DNA of 64,000 nt, taken from positions 67 to 64,066 of the forward strand of contig JADFJB010000006.1 in assembly GCA_022566355.1 (NCBI GenBank), given 5' to 3'. How positions within the stretch are numbered: the first letter of the stretch is position 1; every line of letters starts with the position of its first letter. Origin of the DNA: Candidatus Zhuqueibacterota bacterium (GTDB lineage Bacteria; Zhuqueibacterota; JdFR-76; DREG01). The position numbers and the translations under genes are program-made. Shown here piece after piece: positions 1 through 62,483 of the stretch. Under the pieces are notes generated by a model. The model was not told where the DNA came from and made no database searches. It worked only from the letters and a program-made list of their open reading frames with translations.

Positions 1-180
1 AAGATGGCGCAGTTGGAAGCCTATTTGCAAAAACTAACATCGTTCTCAGAAAATCAAAATAGTCCAGTGGAAATCAGTTTAATGCTAAAGAAAAATTCTC
101 AAGATAAATAATCGTAAGAACACAAAACCTATTTAAAGCCTTTTTTAAAGAAGCTATAACGAGAATTTTAGGAGCATAAC

Positions 181-729
181 ATGAAGAACCCATTCTCAAT
201 TTTGTTCAACACCGCATTATTTTTAATTTGCAGCCAGCATAGCATCGCCCAAATCACCGTATCCAAAAGTGTAATGAGCAATGGCGGTGTGGTTGTTATC
301 AACGGCGAATATGCCATGCTGGGAACGGTTGGACAAACATTCGTCGGAGTTACTGAGAATTCAACCCATGTAAACCGGGTCGGCTTCTGGTATCTTACCG
401 ATCAAACAGTGGCAACAGATGTTGCTGATGAAACAAATACCAGTTTACCAACTGAATTCGGTCTTGACCAAAACTATCCAAACCCCTTCAACCCGGAAAC
501 AGAAATTCCATTCCGGATTCCGGAAGAATCCGATGTTGTATTAAAGATATTCAACATTCGCGGCCAGCTTGTGCGTGCACTCATACAAGCTGATTACACG
601 CCTGGATTTCACAGCATTCGCTGGGATGGCAAGGATAACAATGGCATGACTGTTTCGAGTGGTGTGTATATTTATCGATTTCAGGCTGGGGAATTTATTC
701 ACGTAAAGAAGATGAGTTTGCTTCGTTGA
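181..729 (+). CDS. Small secreted protein with T9SS-type C-terminal sorting domain
   Basis: N-terminal hydrophobic signal (FNTALFLICSQHSIAQ). C-terminal ~80 aa carries the NYPNPFNP...IYIYRF...IHVKKMSLLR pattern typical of Por/T9SS C-terminal sorting domains. AGGAG RBS upstream of the ATG at 181. Confidence 0.6.
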   Translation: MKNPFSILFNTALFLICSQHSIAQITVSKSVMSNGGVVVINGEYAMLGTVGQTFVGVTENSTHVNRVGFWYLTDQTVATDVADETNTSLPTEFGLDQNYPNPFNPETEIPFRIPEESDVVLKIFNIRGQLVRALIQADYTPGFHSIRWDGKDNNGMTVSSGVYIYRFQAGEFIHVKKMSLLR

Positions 730-788
730 GTGAGGACTTCAATAGCGATACCATCGCTTCGGTACTAACTAATAAATTGTTTTTTTAA

Positions 789-3209
<2,421 letters not shown>

Positions 3210-3430
3210 AGGCATCTCCTGGAAGGAAGTAATAGAGATACTTACTCTGTAAGGAGAATTAGTATGAGAAAGTCAAATTCAATTTGGGTGTTGATCGCTT
3301 TTGCTGCTGGTATCCAAATCCCGCGCATCCGGTTATTGTCTAGTTTGCCCTATTTACTTGGCTGTCATGGCCGAGAGCCTGGACGAATTCGAGAAGCGTT
3401 TGAAGGCGGATGGAATCATATAAGGTCCAT

Positions 3431-3673
3431 CTGCTGAAATTAGCCGACCGTGATATTAGAAAGATTGACGAACAACAAATTAGGCGCATTCTGGATGTGA
3501 TTCGGTCGCTTGCGGAAGATCCTTTTCAGACACAGCACAAGAAACTAAAGGAATAGGAGTCAGCATACCGTTAGCGCGTCGGTGATTATCGTGTAATATA
3601 TGAGGTAAACAAAGCGAAAAGGACCGTAAAGATTTTCTACATTCGACACAGAAAAGATGTTTATCGAAAGTAA
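3431..3673 (+). pseudogene. RelE/ParE-family toxin remnant with two in-frame TAG stops
   Basis: Translation LLKLADRDIRKIDEQQIRRILDVIRSLAEDPFQTQHKKLKE*ESAYR*RVGDYRVIYEVNKAKRTVKIFYIRHRKDVYRK matches the conserved RelE core (KKLKG...YRLRVGDYRVIY...RHRKDVY), but with two internal stops. Confidence 0.5.
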
Positions 3674-3726
3674 TGCACCGTTTCCTCACAACCCGACGAT
3701 CACTTTTTTTTGGATAACCCCGCCTT

Positions 3727-3870
3727 AGCGATAATTCTCCACAATCTGCGCAATCTCCCCCTCACTCAGGTCCGGCAACTCGGATCTCCTGGTCCGGCTT
3801 TTGGTGCTTGCTGATGTTTTCCAGGTAGGTCACGTAGAGCCCGTTTCACCGGGTCGTAGATGTCGTGGTA
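3727..3870 (-). repeat. Decayed duplicate of the 3' end (last ~19 codons plus ~80 nt of patchy similarity) of the gene at 4699..5445
   Basis: Minus-strand translation ends ELPDLSEGEIAQIVENYR*, against ELPDLSEGKIAQIVENYR* in the intact gene. The nucleotide alignment ttctccacaatctgcgc[a/g]atct...tcactcag... is ~75% identical over ~65 nt, and further shared blocks (ccgtttcacc) lie beyond it. Confidence 0.6.
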
Positions 3871-3945
3871 GGTTTAGATTGGAATATATAGGACACGGTT
3901 TATCCATTCTTCTGCTTCTGTTGCAATCCAAAGCAGGATTAGTTC

Positions 3946-4212
3946 TCAATAGCTGTATGAACACTGAGATGCTGTGGAACAATTAGGACACCTGGGCTTT
4001 CTTGTGAGGAAATAAATTGCGCGAAATTGCCTGGGTATGCTCTTTTTATCATGCTGTGACCAGGATGCGCTCTTCGTCTGCAGCAATTTTAAGAACATCT
4101 AAATCGAGTTTTCCCTCAAGCCCGGCTGCCGTTGCCGTTTGAAAGTCGATGGCAGGTTCACGGCGAATAACACCATTTAGAATAATGTGACTGAAGTCAG
4201 CATCGGCCTGAA
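3946..4212 (-). pseudogene. DUF5615 (PIN-like) protein, frameshifted
   Basis: Minus-strand translation (L)KTKFQADADFSHIILNGVIRREPAIDFQTATAAGLEGKLDLDVLKIAADEERILVTA* continues after a one-base shift as DKKSIPRQFRAIYFLTRKPRCPNCSTASQ. The N-terminal FxxDxD, RILVTxDKD and C-terminal NCST motifs fit DUF5615. It lies directly downstream of the DUF433 gene, as in canonical DUF433-DUF5615 pairs. Confidence 0.5.
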
Positions 4213-4221
4213 ATTTAGTTT

Positions 4222-4539
4222 TCAAATCAGTTCTGCTTTTCGTTTTCGTCTGGCATCAGCCAGTTTGAGGTAAAAACCGGGATCTGCTTGCTGAGCAGTT
4301 TTAAGTTTAGCTTCATAATCAGCCCGTTGATTTTTGAGGTATGCGTCAATGTTCTTTTTGTTGGCCAGGTAATAGGCAATGGCGCCGTAAACCTGCTCAA
4401 GGGAGAGCACAGGAAAAGCCTGAGCAATACTTTCAGCGGATTGCCCCTCCAGGAAAGCATAAACCACAGAATCAAGAGAAACTCTACTTCCTACAATCCA
4501 ATAACCTTCTTTCCGTTTTTCTATGTATGGTTTTTTCAT
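4222..4539 (-). CDS. DUF433 family protein (antitoxin-like partner of DUF5615)
   Basis: 105 aa, MKKPYIEKRKEGYWIVGSRVSLDSVVYAFLEGQSAESIAQAFPVLSLEQVYGAIAYY..., typical of DUF433. Adjacent to the DUF5615 remnant. Confidence 0.7.
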   Translation of the reverse strand: MKKPYIEKRKEGYWIVGSRVSLDSVVYAFLEGQSAESIAQAFPVLSLEQVYGAIAYYLANKKNIDAYLKNQRADYEAKLKTAQQADPGFYLKLADARRKRKAELI

Positions 4540-4698
4540 CGTATTTCTCCTGAAAGGCGTTGATCAACTCCAAGGAGCTCAAGAGATCCTAATTATCTAT
4601 CGATAATCGCTTTGCTCCTAGATAGCATGTGTCTCTGTGTGCACAAATAATATTACAAAAACTAATGACAAATCAAACCTTTTTGGGACAACCCTAGC

Positions 4699-5445
4699 CT
4701 ATCTGTAGTTCTCCACAATCTGCGCGATCTTACCTTCACTCAGATCGGGGAGCTCGATCTCGTAGTGAAACAGCGTGCTCTCCGTCACCACCGTTTCACC
4801 TGGCCCGTGCAGCTCCAAGCGGATCTCCAGCAGCCAGGGACCTTTGCGACAGTAGTCGTCCCACTTAAGCGTGCGCTCGATGTAGAAAAGTTCGTTATTA
4901 ATAGCGTCCGCGAGGCGCTGCTTCTCTTTGTTATGCCTTTGCAGCTCGGCATTCCCGGCTTGCGTGGTGTCCGGTGCGTGCACCTTCACAAACTCTGCAA
5001 CTTGAGGCTTGAGAATGTCCAGCCAGCGCCGGCGGCGGACCAGGGCGTCTTCCAGCTTAGGCCAACCGAACTCCCGCAGCTTAACCTTGCCGCTTCTCTT
5101 GAATTCCTCGATCTGTTTTTCGCTCAGACGCCAGGGGTATTTCGACCATTGAAAGGATTCTAACTTCTTACTCTCCAGATAGGCCTCGAAAGGACTCACC
5201 ACTTCTTGGAGCTTGGCAAGAAGCTCGTTGAAGTCACGGTCGAGTCGTGCGTGCAGGCTGTCGTTGGAGAAATGTTCCTGGACGAAGGCTGAGTCGCGAT
5301 AGGCGCCTGGGCAGATTTGTGCCTGTCCGCGCGCTGCAATGGGAAGAAAAAGGGAGAACAGCCAGAAGCCGGCAGTAATCGAGCTAAGCCGCGTTTTGGC
5401 AATCGATAGCATCAGAGGTTCTTGGAAAATTTTCTGAAGGATCAT
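4699..5445 (-). CDS. Hypothetical secreted protein (probable start at internal Met MLSIAK..., signal peptide)
   Basis: 248-aa ORF with an internal signal-like segment ITAGFWLFSLFLPIAARGQAQ. No recognisable domain. Its 3' end is duplicated at 3727..3870. Confidence 0.45.
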   Translation of the reverse strand: MILQKIFQEPLMLSIAKTRLSSITAGFWLFSLFLPIAARGQAQICPGAYRDSAFVQEHFSNDSLHARLDRDFNELLAKLQEVVSPFEAYLESKKLESFQWSKYPWRLSEKQIEEFKRSGKVKLREFGWPKLEDALVRRRRWLDILKPQVAEFVKVHAPDTTQAGNAELQRHNKEKQRLADAINNELFYIERTLKWDDYCRKGPWLLEIRLELHGPGETVVTESTLFHYEIELPDLSEGKIAQIVENYR

Positions 5446-5495
5446 TTTTGCGAAAGCCGGGTCCGTGACTTGCTTTTCAGTTCCTCGTGCGTCCC

Positions 5496-6042
5496 TTACT
5501 GCAGGTAGAGCTGGTCGTGGCGTCGTGCTTCAGTTTCGTTTCCCAGCTTCCAATATAGGGTGGCCAGATGGAATATCGCTTCCGTGTAGTCTGAGTCGAG
5601 TTCAAGCACTTTTTTGTAAAGCACTGTTGCACGAGACCAATCGTGCTTGGACGCTCCGTCTCTGTAAGCGTAGGCCAGGTTAAAGTTTCCCTGGACGTGT
5701 GTTGGGGCGACCTGGAGGAGTTCCTTGTAGTAGCGGATCGGCCTCCGTCCTGTCGCCAAGCTTTTGATGTGAGAACGCCAAATTGAACAAAAGATCAGGA
5801 TCCTTGGCCTGTGACGCATCTAATTCGAGAAGTTTCTGATAGCTCGCGTGTGCATCTTGGTACTTTCCCTGCCTTTTGTGGAACTCGGTGAGCCACCTGT
5901 AGCCTTTCAGATAGTTAGGACGGAGACGAATGGCAGCGAGTAATTCTCTTTCCGCATCTTGGATTTGTCCATTTTTCTCCAGACCATACGCTAGATGTAA
6001 ATGCGCCTCAGGCGGTGGGTTCTTCTTTTGGTATCCGGACAC
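5496..6042 (-). pseudogene. TPR-repeat protein disrupted by frameshift
   Basis: Two overlapping minus-strand ORFs (5496..5819 and 5680..6042) both encode TPR-like repeats (AYAYRDGASKHDW...LELDSDYTEAIFHLATLYWKLGNETEA and LHLAYGLEKNGQIQDAERELLAAIRLRPNYLKGYRWLTEFHKRQGKYQDAHASYQKLLELD). Upstream, 6040-6600 is GC-rich non-coding DNA containing stop-interrupted protein-like fragments. Confidence 0.5.
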
Positions 6043-22633: not shown

Positions 22634-23327
22634 CTACCGTAGAGGGTGACTATATTTATCATAGAGTGTCAGAGCCAATCTTTTTTCTTCATTTGTTATT
22701 GCCATTTTTATACCTTTATATCTTGTTTTCAAATTTTTAATGTACTGAATAATAAAAGGTTTAACTTTTTCATTAAGGTTTGGATGATCTAACAAAGGTA
22801 TCAATAATTTATCATTTAAAAGTTGATAATCCATGCAATACCACCGGTAGTCACCAACCGTAGAGTGTGAGTTACTCATCAAATTTGGTGTGAGATATAT
22901 TAAAAAATTAACATCACTACTATGATTCTGAAGAAGCCAATCTGCGTACTTAATTGACTGGTCGTTTCTCGGTTTTGAATCTATTTTCAGTTCAAAAATT
23001 ATATTAACTATACCAACATTGCCGGATTCATCTGAATATTTTGCGGATAAAAAGATATCAAATCGACCAACACCAGTAATACTTGTCTCTGAGGGGAAGT
23101 TCTCATTTGGAGTAACTTGGAAGGTCTCAAAATTGGCCGTGGGCAATATTTTCAACAAGAAATCATTTTTATGATTATTGGGCTTCAGGCTTTTTTCATC
23201 CAATAACAACATCAAAAAGCGTCGTAAAACATAATCGCCTAATAAATGCGATCCTGTTGTATCAAGCAACCAACCAAAAAATGAAGAATGCCATCTTTCA
23301 TAATGAGTTCTTCCTACAATTTTAAAA
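22634..23327 (-). CDS. PD-(D/E)XK nuclease-superfamily-like protein, apparently lacking a canonical start (5' truncated?)
   Basis: GRFDIFL ... VGIVNIIFELKIDS gives a D...(E)xK arrangement. The frame is open upstream to 23327 with no ATG/GTG (the ORF track begins at an internal TTG). AT-rich context. Confidence 0.4.
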
Positions 23328-57047: not shown

Positions 57048-57051
57048 AAGA

Positions 57052-57096
57052 AGTGCCTAAAGTTCATAAAGTGCCTAAAGTGCCTAAAGTTGAAGA
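57052..57096 (+). repeat. Tandem 9-bp repeat (AGTGCCTAA-like) x5
   Basis: Direct read: agtgcctaa agttcataa agtgcctaa agtgcctaa agttgaaga, starting 5 nt after the stop at 57047. Confidence 0.85.
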
Positions 57097-57283
57097 AGCG
57101 AAATAAAAAATTTTAAAAAATAACAGAATGTCATTTCGACAAAGTGAAGCGAGGAGAAATCTTATCGCCTAATAATTCATTTTCCGAATGGCTCTAAAGA
57201 TTTCTCGCATTAAACTCTTCAAATTGTCAATAAGGCAAATTGTCAAAAGTATAACAAAATAACTTTAACCTTTAGGGGGAGTT

Positions 57284-57643
57284 ATGGACAATAAGGAATT
57301 TGCAAAGCAGCTTGAAAATCGAACAAGAACTTTCGCGATTCAAATTATTCAATTATCAACTAAATTACCAAGGACACCAGAAGCAAATGTAATTAGAAAG
57401 CAAATAACTAAAGCGGGAACTTCAATTGGTGCGAATTATCGGGAAGCTAATCGATCAAGAAGTAAAAATGACTTTATAAGTAAAATTAGAATATGCGAAA
57501 GTGAGTCAAGCGAAACCCAATATTGGCTTCAGATTATTGGGCAAATGTCCTGGATTTCAAAAGAAATAATAAATCCTTTGTATGAAGAATGCAGCCAATT
57601 GCTCGCACTATTTTCCTCCATTGTCCAAAAAAGTAAATTATAG
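57284..57643 (+). CDS. Four-helix-bundle protein (23S rRNA intervening-sequence protein family)
   Basis: FAIQIIQLSTKLPRTPEANVIRKQITKAGTSIGANYREANRSRSKNDFISKIRICESESSETQYWLQI matches the family. GGGGGAG RBS. 119 aa. Confidence 0.8.
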   Translation: MDNKEFAKQLENRTRTFAIQIIQLSTKLPRTPEANVIRKQITKAGTSIGANYREANRSRSKNDFISKIRICESESSETQYWLQIIGQMSWISKEIINPLYEECSQLLALFSSIVQKSKL

Positions 57644-57684
57644 GTTGTAGTTTATAAATAATTAAATAATAGCATCTTTTTAAT

Positions 57685-57706
57685 TTTAGGCACTTTAGGT
57701 ACTTTT
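57685..57706 (-). repeat. Inverted copy of the GTGCCTAAA-type 9-mer repeat
   Basis: Direct read ttaggcactttaggtacttttt is the reverse complement of aaaagtacctaaagtgcctaa. Together with 57052..57096 it brackets the four-helix-bundle gene in inverted orientation. Confidence 0.7.
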
Positions 57707-57722
57707 TTTATTATTGGATGAC

Positions 57723-57834
57723 TTTTAGTCTAGCGAGCTATCGTCTGTAACTCTTCTCTGATAACTTTTCGGAGCGTACTTTCCAACTTACATTCGTGTT
57801 GTTGAATTACTGGCATAATGCATCATTGATCAAG
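57723..57834 (-). repeat. Decayed duplicate of the brnA 3' end (~110 nt, ~88% identical to 58553..58666)
   Basis: ttttagtctagcgagctatcgtctgtaactcttctctgataacttttcggagcgtactttccaacttacattcgtgttgttgaattactggcataatgcatcattgatcaagg aligns base-for-base with the last ~35 codons plus stop of brnA. The copy carries stop codons (…LINDALCQ*). Confidence 0.8.
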
Positions 57835-57931
57835 GTCGTCTTGCAGGATGGGTAAGAGGCAACACAACGTACGAAACAGATTTCGGTTAGCGCATCAGAG
57901 CGGTGCTAGCTAGTGTGAAATTTATGTGACA

Positions 57932-58198
57932 CTATGCGCCCGCCAAACTTTTAGAACAACATGAGACGAGTGCAATCACAATTACCCCATTGTGATTTTC
58001 AAATTGGAGTGGAATAGTGTGAAAAAAATCTTTATCCGTAGTTAGAAAAATTGCTGAATTTTTTTGTGCTATATCAAAAAGAACAGAATCATCAACTCCT
58101 TTATATTCAATGGAATGTCCATCTATCGTTTCATGGCCAGTTGAATTTATATACGAAATACTTTTTCTAGGAAAATTCTCATCAAGAAAAAATATCAT
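57932..58198 (-). CDS. DUF5615 (PIN-like) protein
   Basis: MIFFLDENFPRKSISYINSTGHET...VDDSVLFDIAQKNSAIFLTTDKDFFH fits the DUF5615 consensus. The ATGA overlap with the upstream DUF433 reading frame is typical of this pair. Confidence 0.7.
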   Translation of the reverse strand: MIFFLDENFPRKSISYINSTGHETIDGHSIEYKGVDDSVLFDIAQKNSAIFLTTDKDFFHTIPLQFENHNGVIVIALVSCCSKSLAGA

Positions 58199-58441
58199 GA
58201 TACCTTGAGATTGTAAGGTAGACTTTCAAAACTGGAGAGGTAACTTCCAAATGAGAGCGCTGCTTGAATATCCTCTTTTGATATATTTGGATAGTCTTCC
58301 AAAATTTCTTGAAACGTATCTCCCGGATGCAAGAGCGCCAAGTATGTTACTTACAAGGACTCTTGTCCCTTTGATAACCGGCTTTCCATGACAAACATTT
58401 GGATTTATAGAAATTCTTTCAATCATAACCATTTCCTGCAT
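58195..58441 (-). pseudogene. DUF433 protein with +1 frameshift
   Basis: N-terminus MQEMVMIERISINPNVCHGKPVIKGTRVLVSNILGALASG is canonical DUF433. The conserved continuation DTFQEILEDYPNISKEDIQAALSF... is found in the +1 frame after an extra G in ...gcatccgggagatacg... Confidence 0.6.
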
Positions 58442-58560
58442 TCATTTATAGGTAAAAAAAACATTTTATAATTAAGCGCCAAAACGCAATAAGATCAAAA
58501 TTATTTTTTTGTGTGTTTTAAAAATGAATAGAATCTTCACTCGAAATGTTAATTTTTAGT

Positions 58561-58824
58561 CTAACGCGCTATTGTCTGTAACTCTTCTCTGATAACTTTC
58601 CGCAGCGTACTTTCCAACTTACCTTCGTGTTGTTGAATATACTGGCTTAATGCATCATTAATCAGGGTTTGGTAATTTCCACCACCCATTTTATGAACTT
58701 CATTGCGAAACCATTTAATTACATTGTCATCCAAACGAATGGTTATGCGTGTCTTACCAGGTGGCGATTTTACAACTGCACCTTGCTTAGCGCTACTAAA
58801 ATTATATTCTTCTTTTGCTTTCAT
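58561..58824 (-). CDS. brnA: BrnA-family antitoxin
   Basis: 87 aa; ...RITIRLDDNVIKWFRNEVHKMGGGNYQTLINDALSQYI... matches the BrnA (ribbon-helix-helix type) consensus. Confidence 0.7.
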   Translation of the reverse strand: MKAKEEYNFSSAKQGAVVKSPPGKTRITIRLDDNVIKWFRNEVHKMGGGNYQTLINDALSQYIQQHEGKLESTLRKVIREELQTIAR

Positions 58825-59077
58825 ATGTTTTACTCTCCGTTTTTGTGGCTTTGCGGGCTGAAATTATTCGAATATTGTCACCGCGATGCGTATACACGAC
58901 AACAAGTACTCGGCCAAATAAATCTATTCTGCTGTTGCAAATCGCTGTTCGTCCTCAATAATTTGATCTTTAATAGTTAAGCCCAGATCATCTTCAAGTA
59001 CACTCATTGCATCTGCAAAATCTAATTTATGCTTCTTTAGATTTCGAGTTGCCTTTTGCGCATCCCATTGATAATCT
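58795..59077 (-). pseudogene. BrnT-family toxin remnant (frameshift, no start codon)
   Basis: Minus-strand translation YQWDAQKATRNLKKHKLDFADAMSVLEDDLGLTIKDQIIEDEQRFATAE* continues after a shift as IDLFGRVLVVVYTHRGDNIRIISARKATKTE (BrnT: FEWDxxKxxxNxxKHxxxFxEAxxVF...RIISARxAxxxE). Precedes brnA in the canonical order. Confidence 0.5.
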
Positions 59078-59504
59078 ACTATGTTTCAATATATGCACAA
59101 TCAGTGCACAAAGCAAAGATTAAAAGTTGATCATAAATATTGGTGGGGATGATACTTTTATAGTGTTTATAAAATATGGTTCATCATTAAGGATGCATAC
59201 TTTTCGATTTGAAGCAAGGGGTCTATTTTTGAAATTAGGTTGGGACACAATATATTTATGATCCTTACTTATTAATCCTCTACGAGGTTATTTATGATCA
59301 ATTGCAGCAGAATGAGGCATCCACAGATTTTGATTTATCCTCGTTTAGGATATATTTATAAAAACTCTCGCAGAGAAAAAAACATCGGAGATGTTTAATT
59401 ATTGTAGAAACGAAGTCGAACATTTCCTCGTAGAGGATACATATGCGACTTGTATAACCTCTTCTTTCATTTCCACCATATTGACCTGGGGCAAAGAACC
59501 CCAA

Positions 59505-59580
59505 TGATTTTGAAATATGATATGACATACAATATTTAGAAGCGAATGTCAAGTTATTTTTGGGATTATTATCAATACAG
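59505..59580 (+). repeat. Copy 1 of a ~75-110-nt direct repeat (gattttgaaatatga...aatacaatattt..gcgaatgtcaag.tatttttgg)
   Basis: Aligns with 59813..59888 at ~85% identity. Weaker shared blocks (agatgaac..cgct..ga.aac.g.gg) continue ~35 nt further. Confidence 0.8.
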
Positions 59581-59700
59581 GGCCGCGGCACAATGAGATG
59601 AACGGCGCTCCTGATAACAGGATTACGGCTACTTGGCCAGTCCTGACGCCTCGGAACATAGATCTCGAATCCGATACTTGGACTGGTGCTTGCGGCCCTG
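59578..59700 (+). ncRNA. Candidate structured small RNA / structured DNA element (unclassified)
   Basis: GC-rich island in AT-rich DNA. Perfect 9-bp closing stem cagggccgc / gcggccctg; nested ccagtcc / ggactgg (7 bp), tcctg / cagga (5 bp) and tcgga / tccga (5 bp). No match to a known RNA family could be made by eye. Confidence 0.25.
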
Positions 59701-59812
59701 TTGTATCCATGTTACAAACCGAGAAATCCTTTGGCAAGACATAAAGATTCAGGAAGTAAATTTTCCCAATTCTAACTTAGATTCATCCTGAATCTGGTCC
59801 TGTGAATTCTTA

Positions 59813-59888
59813 CTGATTTTGAAATATGACATTAAATACAATATTTGATTGCGAATGTCAAGATATTTTTGGAAGCAAGGTCGGAAAA
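59813..59888 (+). repeat. Copy 2 of the ~75-110-nt direct repeat
   Basis: See copy 1. Spacing between copies is 308 nt. Confidence 0.8.
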
Positions 59889-60158
59889 GTAGTTTAGATG
59901 AACACCGCTTGAGAGAACCGTGGGCATAAATACATTCCTAGCTTCATAATTCAAAAATAATGTAATAATTTTTGCCTAGATTCCCAACAAATATTTTTAA
60001 TGGTTAATTATTATTGAGCTTTCAAACAACCTTACCTGCTCAAATTGCAACCAGGCAGCTAGCTGTTGTTGATTCATGGGGAGGAATAAATGTGGTAAAA
60101 GAAAAATATCATAGGTGAAGTTTCAGATTTTATTGTTTCATCGAAAAATGAAATTGTA

Positions 60159-61090: not shown

Positions 61091-61402
61091 GTGACGTATA
61101 TATTGATCACTGTTAAATTTAGAAGAATCTATTTGGAGAAATGTTATCGAATTAAAAGTGAAGCTCATAAAAAATGGGGCCCGATTGTCGGAGATAAGTA
61201 TATTAAGCAATTAAATTTAATCTATGCTACTGAATCAGTAAAGGATTTATATTTAATACCTCAATTACGATTTCATCCTTTAAAAGGCGACTTGGAAGGT
61301 CATCACTCTATTACTCTTACATATCGAGCACGTTTAATAGTTAAATGTGACGGTGATACTATCATTTTGATAGAAAAGGTAAGTACAAAACATTATGAGT
61401 AA
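61091..61402 (+). CDS. higB: HigB-like (RelE/ParE superfamily) toxin
   Basis: C-terminal LIPQLRFHPLKGDLEGHHSITLTYRARLIVKCDGDTIILIEKVSTKHYE matches the HigB plasmid-maintenance-killer motif (LKGDRxGxxSIRxNDQWRIxF...DYH). 8-nt overlap with the downstream antitoxin gene. Confidence 0.7.
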   Translation: MTYILITVKFRRIYLEKCYRIKSEAHKKWGPIVGDKYIKQLNLIYATESVKDLYLIPQLRFHPLKGDLEGHHSITLTYRARLIVKCDGDTIILIEKVSTKHYE

Positions 61403-62483
61403 TAATGATTTTTATACAGACAGTCCCATTCATCCGGGCGAGCATTTGAAAGATACTCTTGCATCTTTTGGTCTCTCACAAACTGAATTATCTAATCGTA
61501 TTGGAAAGTCCAGAAAGGTCATCAATGAAATTATTTCCGGCAAAGCTCCTATTGCACCCAGCACTGCGATTCTTTTAGAACGTGTTCTAAATGTGCCGGC
61601 TCATGTATGGAATAATCTACAGCGTAATTTTGACCTGAATATTGCATATCTATCTGAGCAAGTCAAAATAAAAAAGGAAAGTAAATTATTAAGCTACTTT
61701 CCTATTCGTCAAATGATCAAATTTGGGTGGATTCCGGAGTGTATGTCTAATGAAGAAAAAGTAAAAAATTTACTTTCATTTTTTTGTGTATCCAGCCTCA
61801 TGAATATTGAAAACTCTCTATCTGTTCAATTTCGTCGATCGATAAGAGATAATATTTCAAAAGAAGCTTTATACGCATGGATCCGGCAAGGTGAATATGA
61901 AGTCAGAAAAATTGAAACTTCAACCTACGACAAAATTGGTTTACAAAAATGTCTATCAGAATTGAGAAATCTTACAAATGTTTCACCGGAACTGTTTCAA
62001 CCTGAAGTTAAGAGAATTTGTGCTGGAGTTGGTGTTGCTGTTGTGTTTGTTCCAGAACTTCCAAAAACATACATCAATGGCGCCACATTTTGGTTTGATG
62101 GTTTTAAAAAATCAGCACTTTTATTAAGCCTTCGGTTTAAGACAAATGACAATCTTTGGTTTAGTTTTTTTCATGAATTAGGCCACATCATACTACATCG
62201 CAAAAAGGAAAACTTCCTGGATATCTCTGATTTAAAACTCACTGGTGAAGATCGAATCAAAGAAAAAGAAGCCGACACTTTTGCTGCTAATATTTTAATT
62301 CCGGATGCAAAATGGAACGATTTCAAATATTCGGTTCCGTACACAAGACAGAAGATTTTACAATTTTCGCAAGACATTGCAATAGCCCCTGGGATTGTTG
62401 TCGGACGTCTTCAAAAGGAAGAATTATTGCCTTATAGTCACCTTAATGGACTGAAAGAAAAATATCAATGGGTTCTGGATTGA
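61395..62483 (+). CDS. higA: HigA-type HTH antitoxin fused to C-terminal ImmA/IrrE-family (COG2856) zinc metallopeptidase domain
   Basis: N-terminus IHPGEHLKDTLASFGLSQTELSNRIGKSRKVINEIISGKAPIAPSTAILLERVLNVPAHVWNNLQRNFDL is canonical HigA. C-terminal region carries HELGHIILH (HExxH) plus downstream E/D, typical of ImmA/IrrE. 362 aa. Confidence 0.7.
   Translation: MSNNDFYTDSPIHPGEHLKDTLASFGLSQTELSNRIGKSRKVINEIISGKAPIAPSTAILLERVLNVPAHVWNNLQRNFDLNIAYLSEQVKIKKESKLLSYFPIRQMIKFGWIPECMSNEEKVKNLLSFFCVSSLMNIENSLSVQFRRSIRDNISKEALYAWIRQGEYEVRKIETSTYDKIGLQKCLSELRNLTNVSPELFQPEVKRICAGVGVAVVFVPELPKTYINGATFWFDGFKKSALLLSLRFKTNDNLWFSFFHELGHIILHRKKENFLDISDLKLTGEDRIKEKEADTFAANILIPDAKWNDFKYSVPYTRQKILQFSQDIAIAPGIVVGRLQKEELLPYSHLNGLKEKYQWVLD

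What the first reader, a model, noticed from the sequence alone, without database searches (positions are those of the whole stretch)
57723..58666. Second DUF433-DUF5615 pair embedded in a duplication of the brnA 3' end
On the minus strand the order is: brnT (pseudogene), brnA (58824→58561), frameshifted DUF433 (58441→58195), DUF5615 (58198→57932), ~90 nt spacer, then a ~110-nt, ~88%-identical decayed copy of the final ~35 codons and stop of brnA (57834→57723). Gene order, orientation, spacer length and position of the decayed copy are the same as at locus 3727..4810, although the host genes and the DUF433/DUF5615 sequences are unrelated. Finding the geometry twice within 64 kb argues that DUF433-DUF5615 modules move as ~0.8-0.9-kb cassettes into the 3' ends of genes, bringing a replacement 3' end. 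This would be a previously undescribed mobility behaviour for a toxin-antitoxin-like or PIN-like pair. The PIN-like DUF5615 nuclease is a candidate participant.
Basis: seen in the sequence. Interest (0 to 1): 0.8.

Follow-up and report, generated by a model that had tools for sequence, protein, structure and literature searches.

The report
Toxin-antitoxin cassettes flanked by duplicated gene ends
Two decaying toxin-antitoxin gene pairs in this bacterial genome each sit between an intact gene and a leftover second copy of that gene's last 60-115 bases, which looks like the "insertion with long target duplication" so far described only for restriction-modification genes and gives a testable lead on how such gene pairs move.

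Summary
On the minus strand, brnA (58824→58561) is followed by a frameshifted DUF433 gene and a truncated DUF5615 gene. A 114-nt, ~91-92% identical copy of brnA's last 36 codons, stop and 7 nt then follows (57836→57723). Locus 3706-4803 has the same layout. Apart from one 59-nt pair, these are the only dispersed direct repeats of ≥40 nt in the 64 kb.

**For:**
- The ~0.7-kb pair does move as a unit (92% identical in unrelated contexts, L038/L047).
- DUF433-DUF5615 pairs are tightly bracketed by direct repeats in 11-17% of loci, against 0.8-2.7% of control positions.
- Two other loci (L111, L145) repeat the 3'-end layout.
- The copies differ mostly at synonymous sites, which fits a replacement 3' end.

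**Against:**
- No empty site was found.
- Bracketing repeats elsewhere are mixed: gene 5' ends, multicopy noncoding elements, HIP1 repeats.
- Relatives carry the same cassette nearby without the duplication.
- Other TA types are bracketed too.
- Both toxin genes here are dead, and no recombinase gene was found among the ORFs examined.

The closest precedents are long target duplication around restriction-modification genes and icd/e14/icdC. The best reading is host-recombination-mediated cassette insertion, not DUF5615-driven homing.

The parts
58830..59097 (-). brnT pseudogene (N-terminal fragment, then stop/frameshift)
   Evidence: Fragment WDAQKATRNLKKHKLDFADAM... matches PF04365 BrnT_toxin at 43.6 bits. 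An intact 93-aa brnT occurs in relative L095.
58561..58824 (-). brnA antitoxin gene, intact (87 aa)
   Evidence: Matches PF14384 at 42.9 bits. 3824 homologues were found.
58554..58668 (-). upstream repeat copy: last 36 codons of brnA, stop codon and 7 nt
   Evidence: Its 3' edge coincides with the end of the brnTA module as seen in three different contexts (window, L095, L096).
58442..58553 (-). 112-nt spacer between brnA and DUF433
   Evidence: 84% identical in L095. Absent from L014. Promoter-like hits are no more frequent than in shuffles.
58195..58441 (-). DUF433 (COG2442) antitoxin gene, frameshifted
   Evidence: Two ORFs match PF04255 positions 1-32 and 26-55. An intact 82-aa orthologue occurs in L014.
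57932..58198 (-). DUF5615 PIN-like toxin gene, 3'-truncated; true homology ends at 57969
   Evidence: Matches PF18480 positions 1-79 of 110. The 88% match to L014 stops at 57969.
57837..57968 (-). 132 nt of unknown origin between the truncated toxin and the displaced brnA end
   Evidence: No match anywhere except in conspecific contigs. No similarity to upstream brnA (p=0.84).
57723..57836 (-). downstream, displaced copy of the brnA 3' end (1-nt deletion, premature stops)
   Evidence: It keeps the ancestral Cys codon found in natural brnA alleles.
4699..5445 (-). host gene of locus 1 (248-aa orphan, signal-peptide-like N-terminus)
   Evidence: Only 2 homologues among 5.8 billion proteins. No Pfam match.
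4680..4803 (-). upstream repeat copy: last 18 codons, stop and ~20 nt, with a possible extension to CCAGGTGAAACGG at 4803-4791
4540..4679 (-). spacer; 4540-4625 belongs to the cassette unit shared with L188
4222..4539 (-). DUF433 antitoxin gene, intact (105 aa)
   Evidence: Matches PF04255. 2373 homologues were found.
3874..4225 (-). DUF5615 toxin gene, full length but broken by stop/frameshift
   Evidence: The 58-aa ORF matches PF18480. The rest...ELILLWIATEAEEWINRVLYIPI*, lies in another frame. Intact 116-126-aa orthologues occur in L188 and L015.
3706..3853 (-). downstream displaced copy of the host gene's 3' end and ~20 nt beyond; clear from 3800, possible from 3853
   Evidence: Ten synonymous codon differences against one nonsynonymous, and TAG vs TAA stops.
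59505..59872 (.). 59-nt direct repeat pair (59505-59563 / 59814-59872) at the site where relative L014 carries DUF4160-DUF2442 plus this DUF433-DUF5615 pair

Best explanation
Each locus is a small type II toxin-antitoxin cassette: a DUF433/COG2442 antitoxin with a DUF5615 PIN-like toxin, about 0.7 kb. It was inserted at the 3' end of a resident gene by host recombination and left a long duplication of the target (about 60-115 nt).

The upstream copy keeps the gene intact. The downstream copy is the displaced, now useless 3' end. The two copies differ mostly at synonymous sites, very clearly so in locus 1. They therefore appear to be two diverged functional alleles brought together by the event, not one sequence duplicated and left to decay.

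The most likely route is homology-anchored integration of incoming DNA that carried the cassette next to a foreign copy of the same gene end. This could be single-crossover (Campbell-type) integration of a circularised fragment. It could also be one homologous plus one microhomology junction.

The end product matches 'insertion with long target duplication' of restriction-modification genes and the icd/e14/icdC arrangement. The cassette encodes no recombinase, and the PIN-like toxin is not needed. After insertion the addiction module decayed: toxin truncated or broken, antitoxin frameshifted in locus 2.

**Shown:** the anatomy, the non-randomness, cassette mobility as a unit, enrichment of bracketing repeats, and the synonymous bias.

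**Inferred:** the direction of the event, the donor, and the recombination route.
For: - Anatomy and domain assignments.
- These are the only dispersed repeats in 64 kb apart from one 59-nt pair.
- The structures are reproduced in independent assemblies.
- Cassette moves as a unit: L038/L047 share 718 nt at 92% in unrelated flanks; the window locus 1 cassette versus L015 (683 nt, 77%, between methylmalonyl-CoA mutase genes) and L188 (88%).
- Enrichment of tight bracketing repeats: 7/63 vs 82/10090 control positions, p~9e-7; 6/35 vs 45/1641, p=3e-4.
- The same 3'-end layout occurs in L111 and L145, and with the 3' end of a convergent FAD-oxidase gene in L038.
- Synonymous bias: locus 1 pS 0.79/pN 0.07, locus 2 pS 0.33/pN 0.025. 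The null of in-situ decay gives p=0.005 and p=0.011.
- The downstream brnA copy keeps states shared with natural alleles.
- No recombinase or transposase domain in the 20 large ORFs examined with Pfam (those of 181-729 and 6.6-13 kb, 22.6-23.3 kb, 39-55 kb and 60-64 kb), the rest not having been scanned.
- A possible microhomology (12/13 nt) sits at the inner junction of locus 1.
- Precedents in the literature: PMC2853133, PMC3874152, PMC13626634.
Against: - No empty site was recovered. All conspecific and 88%-related contigs are filled, so the direction and the single-event nature are unproven.
- For locus 2, the 85%-related L014 has the same cassette in the same neighbourhood, but after brnA-segA-DUF4160-DUF2442 and with no brnA duplication. 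This points to local reshuffling of a decaying TA island rather than fresh acquisition.
- Numbers for the synonymous test are small (12 and 9 differences).
- Gene conversion between the copies is suggested. In strain L186 the upstream copy is 95.7% identical to the window's downstream copy. This could distort the pattern.
- In L111 and L145 the few differences are nonsynonymous. That fits a plain target duplication with in-situ decay, so more than one route may exist.
- The truncated toxin and the 132 nt of unknown DNA in locus 2 need an extra step.
Confidence: 0.5

Rival explanations
1. Local rearrangement only. The TA-rich spots undergo tandem duplications, deletions and gene conversion. The downstream copies are remnants of a second (paralogous or tandem) copy of the neighbouring gene, most of which has been deleted. 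No cassette insertion took place.
For: - L014 shows the locus 2 cassette already in this neighbourhood in a relative, at similar divergence (88%) to the flanking genes (84-85%).
- The window has lost DUF4160-DUF2442 at a junction marked by another 59-nt duplicate.
- L052 vs L028 shows the duplication arising in an orthologous locus that already had the cassette.
- brnTA is itself a multi-copy mobile module.
Against: - Locus 1's host gene is an orphan with no paralogue on record.
- pS of 0.79 with pN of 0.07 would need an old functional paralogue that lost all but its last ~100 nt very recently.
- The left edge of the locus 2 copy is a sharp junction with unrelated DNA, so at least two further deletions are required.
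- The same layout recurs in L111 and L145 in unrelated genomes, and bracketing is enriched 6-14-fold.
Confidence: 0.22
2. Dedicated cassette mobility. DUF433-DUF5615 modules are mini-elements that actively target gene ends. They would use either the PIN-like DUF5615 nuclease (homing-like staggered cleavage) or a recombinase acting in trans, and they carry a replacement end.
For: - Two of two pairs in the window have the layout, and so do L111 and L145.
- Bracketing repeats are strongly enriched.
- The unit has tight boundaries, about 35 nt before DUF433 to about 45 nt after DUF5615.
Against: - The repeats share no motif between loci, and their lengths vary from 30 to 460 nt.
- Targets include 5' ends and noncoding repeats.
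- PIN (PF01850) and PemK pairs are bracketed by the same repeats.
- The cassette has no terminal inverted repeats.
- Most pairs (83-89%) have no bracketing repeat.
- TA-type PIN toxins are known as RNases (general knowledge; COG2442-PIN is classed as VapBC-like in PMC2701414 and PMC3834315).
- Both toxin genes here are dead.
Confidence: 0.15
3. These are remnants of larger integrated elements (prophage, ICE or IME). Such elements entered the 3' ends of the genes by site-specific recombination, carrying a replacement 3' end as e14 does at icd. They were then deleted down to the addiction module.
For: - The layout gene / replacement end / insert / displaced end, with synonymous-biased divergence, is exactly that of icd-e14-icdC (PMC13626634).
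- TA modules resist loss.
Against: - No integrase fragment or other element genes lie between the repeats; the spacers are only 70-140 nt.
- Independent reduction to exactly the TA pair would be needed in both window loci and in L111, L145 and others.
- No recombinase was found among the ORFs examined.
Confidence: 0.08
4. These are integron-type gene cassettes, and the flanking repeats are attC recombination sites.
For: - TA pairs are common integron cassettes (PMC3874152).
- Some census loci (L100, L160, L086) show arrays of 0.7-1-kb units separated by 60-170-nt repeats.
Against: - The window repeats are coding 3' ends conserved at the protein level across BrnA homologues.
- They do not fold better than shuffles as single strands (z about 0).
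- No R''/R' box pair was found in the census repeats examined.
- No intI-like gene was found among the ORFs examined.
Confidence: 0.03

Closest known systems
Insertion with long target duplication of restriction-modification gene complexes (Nobusato et al. 2000, Gene 259:99; Furuta, Abe & Kobayashi 2010, PMC2853133)
   Same: - A short addiction-type gene cassette with no mobility gene is flanked by long (30-400 bp), variable, locus-specific direct repeats of the target.
- The repeats often overlap the 3' end of a neighbouring gene.
- Flanking repeats are more frequent than for average genes.
- The mechanism is unknown.
   Different: - The cargo is a toxin-antitoxin pair, not a restriction-modification system. 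The 2013 review (PMC3874152) mentions this mode for RM systems only.
- No empty-site genome is available here.
- In locus 1 the two copies look like diverged alleles rather than a duplicated single target.
Integrative elements inserted in the 3' end of a protein gene with a replacement end, e.g. e14 at icd with the icdC pseudogene (Hill et al. 1989; PMC13626634)
   Same: - The layout is intact gene with substitute 3' end, then insert, then displaced C-terminal fragment.
- Differences between the copies are mostly synonymous.
   Different: - The insert is 0.8-1 kb and has no integrase.
- No att core is shared between the loci.
- No excision has been demonstrated.
COG2442(DUF433)-PIN VapBC-like type II toxin-antitoxin modules (Makarova et al. 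2009, PMC2701414; vapBC10 of Synechocystis, PMC3834315)
   Same: - Gene order is antitoxin first, then toxin, with overlapping stop/start (ATGA).
- Pfam matches PF04255 and PF18480/PIN_10.
- The modules are abundant in cyanobacteria, Chloroflexi and many uncultured phyla.
   Different: Both copies here are pseudogenised, and nothing in the literature that was read describes their insertion layout.
Integron gene cassettes / CALIN arrays
   Same: The units are small and promoter-poor (0.5-1 kb), often TA pairs, and separated by repeats. Some census loci look array-like.
   Different: - The window repeats are coding gene ends without an attC fold or attC boxes.
- No integrase was found.
- The repeats are locus-specific.
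Homology-facilitated illegitimate recombination / Campbell-type single-crossover integration (general recombination routes; own knowledge)
   Same: These routes would bring in foreign DNA anchored on one homologous segment. They can leave two diverged copies of that segment around the insert, without any element-encoded enzyme.
   Different: This is a process, not a family, and it has not been demonstrated here. Classical HFIR usually deletes recipient DNA rather than duplicating it.

Membership tests
COG2442(DUF433)-PIN-like(DUF5615) type II TA module | Adjacent co-oriented small genes, DUF433 first, with both matching their Pfam models above the gathering score | tested here: met
   - Locus 2: PF04255 at 46.0 and 36.2 bits (cut-off 23.6); PF18480 at 55.3 bits (cut-off 23.8).
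- Locus 1: PF04255 at 33.6 bits; PF18480 at 23.1 bits for the 58-aa fragment, just below cut-off. The remainder of that toxin was recovered in another frame.
COG2442(DUF433)-PIN-like(DUF5615) type II TA module | Intact, functional toxin neutralised by the antitoxin | tested here: not met
   - The locus 2 antitoxin is frameshifted and the toxin truncated at 57969.
- The locus 1 toxin is broken by a stop/frameshift.
- Activity itself cannot be tested with these tools.
Insertion with long target duplication (Furuta 2010 criteria) | Insert <20 kb flanked by direct repeats >30 bp | tested here: met
   Repeats of 115 nt and ~95 nt, with inserts of 0.72 and 0.88 kb between the copies.
Insertion with long target duplication (Furuta 2010 criteria) | No mobility gene in or beside the insert | tested here: met
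   Only the TA genes lie between the repeats. The 20 large ORFs examined with Pfam show no integrase or transposase domain; the remaining large ORFs were not scanned.
Insertion with long target duplication (Furuta 2010 criteria) | A related genome has the repeat once, with no insert (empty site) | tested here: inconclusive
   About 25 related contigs are all filled or end inside the repeat. Relative L014 is rearranged rather than empty.
Insertion with long target duplication (Furuta 2010 criteria) | Repeat sequence otherwise unique in the genome | tested here: inconclusive
   It is unique within the 64-kb window. The rest of the genome could not be searched.
Site-specific integrative element in a gene 3' end (e14/icd type) | Replacement 3' end keeps the ORF open, with a displaced 3' fragment at the far end | tested here: met
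   Synonymous-biased divergence is shown.
Site-specific integrative element in a gene 3' end (e14/icd type) | Element-encoded integrase/excisionase | tested here: not met
   No such ORF lies between the repeats or among the ORFs examined.
Integron gene cassette | attC site: imperfect palindrome with R''(RYYYAAC)/R'(GTTRRRY) boxes that folds as a single strand | tested here: not met
   Single-strand folds of the window repeats are no better than shuffles: z from -0.05 to +0.6, and -1.7 for one locus 1 copy. The repeats are conserved coding sequence.
Integron gene cassette | intI integrase with attI adjacent to the array | tested here: not met
   No integrase domain in the ORFs examined. Not every ORF of the window was scanned.
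IS / MITE / transposon | Terminal inverted repeats and a short (<15 bp) target duplication | tested here: not met
   No inverted repeats at the cassette ends, and the duplications are 95-115 nt.
Diversity-generating retroelement (template/variable repeat at a gene 3' end) | Reverse transcriptase nearby and adenine-specific differences between the repeats | tested here: not met
   The substitutions are of all types (C/T, A/T, G/T, G/C, A/G). No RT ORF lies between or beside the repeats.

The most novel reading that the evidence does not exclude
Small toxin-antitoxin cassettes (here DUF433-PIN-like) are a second class of addiction modules, after restriction-modification systems, that insert without any known mobile element. 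They would use a mechanism that produces long (30-460 nt), locus-specific target duplications, preferentially tolerated at gene ends because the duplication or an imported allele restores the gene. The flanking repeats would then allow excision as circles and re-integration by homology. That would be a self-perpetuating, enzyme-free life cycle for TA modules.
Probability: 0.2. Interest if true: 0.75.

Novelty: new member of a known kind. Interest (0 to 1): 0.5.

Why it matters
How chromosomal toxin-antitoxin modules move between unrelated sites is still poorly explained. Their spread is usually attributed to riding on plasmids, phages or integrons.

This work gives three things:
- a reproducible insertion footprint of long target duplication around a ~0.7-kb TA unit;
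- a 6-14-fold enrichment of that footprint over control positions;
- a direct example of the unit at 92% identity in unrelated contexts.

Together these extend to TA modules a phenomenon known only for restriction-modification genes. They also give concrete junction sequences that can be tested by empty-site searches, junction PCR, transformation assays and nuclease assays. If the effect is only a by-product of general recombination in accessory-gene hotspots, it still explains the short 'ghost' gene ends found next to TA loci in annotation.

Tried and rejected
- **Empty-site search.** I looked up the exact proteins brnA, the 248-aa host gene and the IVP neighbour, and their closest homologues (P0003, P0005, P0006, P0008, P0002, P0127). 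All conspecific or near contigs were filled, or ended inside the repeat.
- **Origin of the host tail.** A search for the host protein's C-terminal 45 aa hit only repeats in three giant proteins.
- **Origin of the unknown DNA.** The 132-nt stretch (57837-57968) and the spacers matched nothing outside the same species, except that the 'junk' of locus 1 turned out to be the rest of DUF5615.
- **attC / integron reading.** Rejected: no fold and no boxes.
- **DGR reading.** Rejected: the mismatches are not adenine-specific and there is no RT.
- **IS/MITE reading.** Rejected: no terminal inverted repeats.
- **RNA genes.** No Rfam family and no tRNA/tmRNA in the window, so this is not a tRNA-type att site.
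- **Promoters and terminators.** The scan gave no more hits than shuffles.
- **Shared motif.** I saw no convincing shared motif at the repeat edges of the two loci beyond an A-run after each stop.
- **Ancestral order of the locus 2 island.** My attempt to reconstruct it from L014, L095 and the window did not give a parsimonious path.
- **Assembly artefact.** Rejected: the copies differ from each other and recur in independent assemblies.
Full report
**1. What is in the sequence**

Locus 2 reads as follows on the minus strand.
- A brnT fragment that matches PF04365 at 43.6 bits but is interrupted.
- An intact brnA at 58824→58561, matching PF14384.
- A 112-nt spacer.
- A DUF433 gene split over two frames (58441→58195; both parts match PF04255).
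- An 88-aa DUF5615/PIN_10 ORF (58198→57932; profile positions 1-79 of 110).
- A copy of the brnA 3' end at 57836→57723.

The two copies (58554-58668 and 57723-57836) align over 115/114 nt with nine substitutions and one 1-nt deletion. They include the stop codon and 7 nt beyond it.

Locus 1 has the same order.
- A 248-aa gene at 5445→4699.
- A 140-nt spacer.
- An intact DUF433 at 4539→4222.
- A DUF5615 gene.
- A ~95-nt, ~78% copy of the host gene's last 18 codons, stop and ~20 nt (3800→3706).

- In locus 2, similarity to the full-length relative stops at 57969, inside the toxin gene. It is followed by 132 nt that match nothing else.
- In locus 1, the DNA after the 58-aa ORF holds the rest of DUF5615 in another frame (...EEWINRVLYIPI*, ending near 3874). 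That toxin is therefore full length but broken.

**2. Is it more than chance or an artefact?**

A scan of the whole window finds only three dispersed direct-repeat pairs of ≥40 nt. Two of them bracket the only two DUF433-DUF5615 pairs. The third (59505/59814) lies in the same TA-rich spot.

The structures recur in many independent assemblies of the same candidate division KSB1 population. The copies also differ from each other. Assembly error is therefore excluded.

**3. Relatives of the two loci**

No empty site was found. All conspecific contigs (97-99%) are filled or break inside the repeat.

An 88% relative (L095) has an intact brnT, brnA, the same spacer and the start of DUF433. Its contig ends there.

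A brnA at 88% in a different context (L096) diverges from the window about 9 nt after the stop. The 3' edge of the repeat is therefore the natural end of the brnTA module.

The most informative relative is L014 (~85%). It has a brnT remnant, brnA, a 100-nt segment, a DUF4160-DUF2442 pair and then the same DUF433-DUF5615 pair (88% nt, full-length toxin). It has no second brnA end.

In the window, the DNA that flanks the cassettes in L014 lies upstream of brnT. There it is joined across about 10 surviving DUF4160 codons and a 59-nt duplicate.

Locus 2 therefore sits in a decaying, reshuffled TA island. The cassette was probably already in this neighbourhood in the common ancestor.

For locus 1, the host gene is an orphan with two homologues in 5.8 billion proteins. 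Its only relative has a different C-terminus.

The cassette has relatives at 88% (L188) and 77% (L015) in other contexts. In L015 it lies between two methylmalonyl-CoA mutase genes with no flanking repeat. Shared similarity runs from before DUF433 to about 33 nt after DUF5615. That defines the unit.

**4. Divergence between the copies**

In locus 1, the 18 shared codons show ten synonymous codon differences, one nonsynonymous difference, and TAG versus TAA stops. Nei-Gojobori gives pS 0.79 and pN 0.07.

In locus 2, there are seven synonymous and two nonsynonymous differences plus the frameshift, giving pS 0.33 and pN 0.025.

The null model is an in-situ duplication whose downstream copy decays neutrally while the upstream copy stays constrained. 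Against that null the excess of synonymous change gives p=0.005 and p=0.011.

For locus 2, natural brnA alleles and L095/L096 show that the downstream copy mostly keeps ancestral states, for example the Cys codon. It carries only about four private changes.

The displaced ends therefore spent most of their divergence time as working gene ends. The event joined two diverged alleles, or the displacement is recent.

This is the pattern of icd/e14/icdC, where excision produces 'parallel synonymous changes' (PMC13626634).

Three caveats apply.
- The counts are small.
- There are signs of gene conversion between the copies: in strain L186 the upstream copy is 95.7% identical to the window's downstream copy.
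- There is no outgroup for locus 1.

**5. Census of other DUF433-DUF5615 loci**

From an alignment of 45 homologues I fetched 80 genome loci. Of 84 DUF433 hits, 72 had a DUF5615 ORF immediately downstream.

Self-comparison showed tight bracketing by direct repeats of ≥30 nt. 'Tight' means the first copy ends ≤350 nt upstream and the second starts ≤350 nt downstream. This held in 7 of 63 loci with adequate flanks, against 82 of 10,090 control positions in the same loci (0.8%; p~9e-7).

A second set of 80 metagenome loci for the short DUF433 type gave 6 of 35 against 2.7% (p=3e-4).

The repeats are mixed in nature:
- the 3' end of a convergent FAD-oxidase gene plus intergenic DNA (L038);
- the promoter and first 31 codons of a hicB-like gene (L066);
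- the 5' end of a nucleotidyltransferase antitoxin (L052);
- the 5' end of a small antitoxin-like ORF in three copies, separating a DUF433 pair and a PIN pair (L071);
- a conserved 300-nt multicopy noncoding element in two Planctomycetes (L016/L018);
- HIP1-containing 30-nt repeats in Pseudanabaena, which also bracket a PemK pair (L073 and relatives);
- hairpins and array-like repeats (L140, L100, L160).

Two loci reproduce the window's layout exactly. In L111 and L145, the last 10-13 codons of the upstream co-oriented gene recur 10-35 nt after DUF5615. In L145 this includes 16 nt past the stop. There the few differences are nonsynonymous, as expected for in-situ decay.

Two further comparisons matter.
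- L038 and L047 share only a 718-nt unit at 92% identity in otherwise unrelated DNA. This is direct evidence that the pair moves as a unit.
- L052 versus L028/L030 is an orthologous locus. L028 has gene X, the cassette and an intact nucleotidyltransferase gene. L052 has the 5' fragment of that gene on both sides of the cassette.

**6. How it most likely works**

The cassette has no recombinase and no terminal inverted repeats. The 20 large ORFs examined with Pfam are housekeeping genes or carry other unrelated domains.

The repeats of the two loci share no motif, differ in length, and do not fold like attC sites. There is no tRNA or Rfam element.

The simplest mechanism is host recombination. 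Incoming or locally excised DNA carrying the cassette and a stretch of the neighbouring gene integrates through that homology. This could be a single crossover of a circle, or one homologous and one microhomology junction. A candidate 12/13-nt match sits at the inner junction of locus 1.

The result leaves the gene intact with one copy of its end and displaces the other copy.

Selection explains the bias to gene ends, because only insertions that keep the gene working survive.

The addiction property of TA modules would help such insertions persist until the toxin is inactivated, as it has been in both loci.

This last part is inference. The direction of the events and the donors are not shown.

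**7. Comparison with what is known, and novelty**

DUF433(COG2442)-PIN pairs are a predicted and partly tested VapBC-like TA family (PMC2701414, PMC3834315).

'Insertion with long target duplication' is documented for restriction-modification systems. Those systems are also flanked by direct repeats more often than average genes, and their repeats often overlap a gene's 3' end (PMC2853133). A later review of RM and TA systems mentions this mode for RM systems only (PMC3874152).

Gene / replacement end / insert / displaced end is classical for integrase-borne elements (PMC13626634).

The window loci meet the structural criteria of the first kind, except for the missing empty site. They fail the integrase, attC, IS and DGR criteria.

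I therefore file them as a new member (TA cargo) of a known kind of insertion footprint.

**8. Verdict**

Interest is moderate. The footprint is real, recurrent and testable. Its mechanism is unproven, it is probably not specific to this TA family, and at locus 2 local reshuffling of a decaying TA island is a serious alternative.

Noticed in passing
window 57051-57098 and 57672-57705, around 57284-57643(+): The 23S_rRNA_IVP (four-helix-bundle) gene is flanked by 27-nt inverted repeats (89% complementary) built from tandem 9-mers AAAGTGCCT. The relative L014 lacks this gene at the corresponding place.
   Followed up: no
window 59505-59563 / 59814-59872 and ~59904-59936(-): A 59-nt direct repeat (86%) and about 10 surviving codons of a DUF4160 gene (NVFMPTVLSSG) mark the spot where relative L014 carries DUF4160-DUF2442 followed by the DUF433-DUF5615 pair. 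It looks like a deletion junction with a duplicated filler.
   Followed up: partly
window 3300-3670(+): A RelE/ParE-like toxin pseudogene, with a short antitoxin-like ORF upstream of it, converges on the displaced gene end of locus 1. Locus 1 is therefore also a small TA graveyard. The family assignment was made by eye and not tested.
   Followed up: no
window 1-6000: GC content is 48-49% here against about 33-45% in the rest of the window. This part holds collagen-repeat and Peptidase_S74 (tail-fibre-like) genes and locus 1, so it may be a foreign island.
   Followed up: no
L038:3966-4683 vs L047:3966-4682: A 718-nt DUF433-DUF5615 unit is 92% identical in two Thermoanaerobaculia MAGs whose flanking DNA is unrelated. 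This is a clean example of the pair moving as a unit.
   Followed up: partly
L016:3534-3833 / 4731-5024; L018:3537-3828 / 4561-4850 / 995-1154: A conserved ~300-nt multicopy noncoding element with internal hairpins (87-93% identical between copies and between two Planctomycetes genomes) lies on both sides of the cassette.
   Followed up: partly
L073, L078, L089, L062, L083 (Pseudanabaena): The same ~785-nt cassette occurs in different contexts and is bounded by HIP1 (GCGATCGC)-containing ~30-nt repeats. In L073 these repeats also bracket a PemK/MazF pair and a partial second cassette copy.
   Followed up: partly
L100:35-90, 832-887, 1548-1614, 2454-2521; L160; L086: Array-like loci have 60-170-nt repeats at 0.7-1-kb spacing, separating TA pairs and GxxExxY-like genes. 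No strict attC boxes were found, but a proper attC model was not available.
   Followed up: partly
L186:1445-1559 vs window 57723-57836: In one conspecific strain the upstream brnA end is 95.7% identical to the window's downstream copy, against 91-92% in the window itself. This suggests ongoing gene conversion between the two copies in the population.
   Followed up: no
window 61395-62483(+) and 22634-23269(-): An HTH_3 + Peptidase_M78 (ImmA/IrrE-like) gene lies 2.5 kb from locus 2, and a PD-(D/E)XK_4 nuclease gene lies mid-window. Neither is obviously linked to the cassettes.
   Followed up: no
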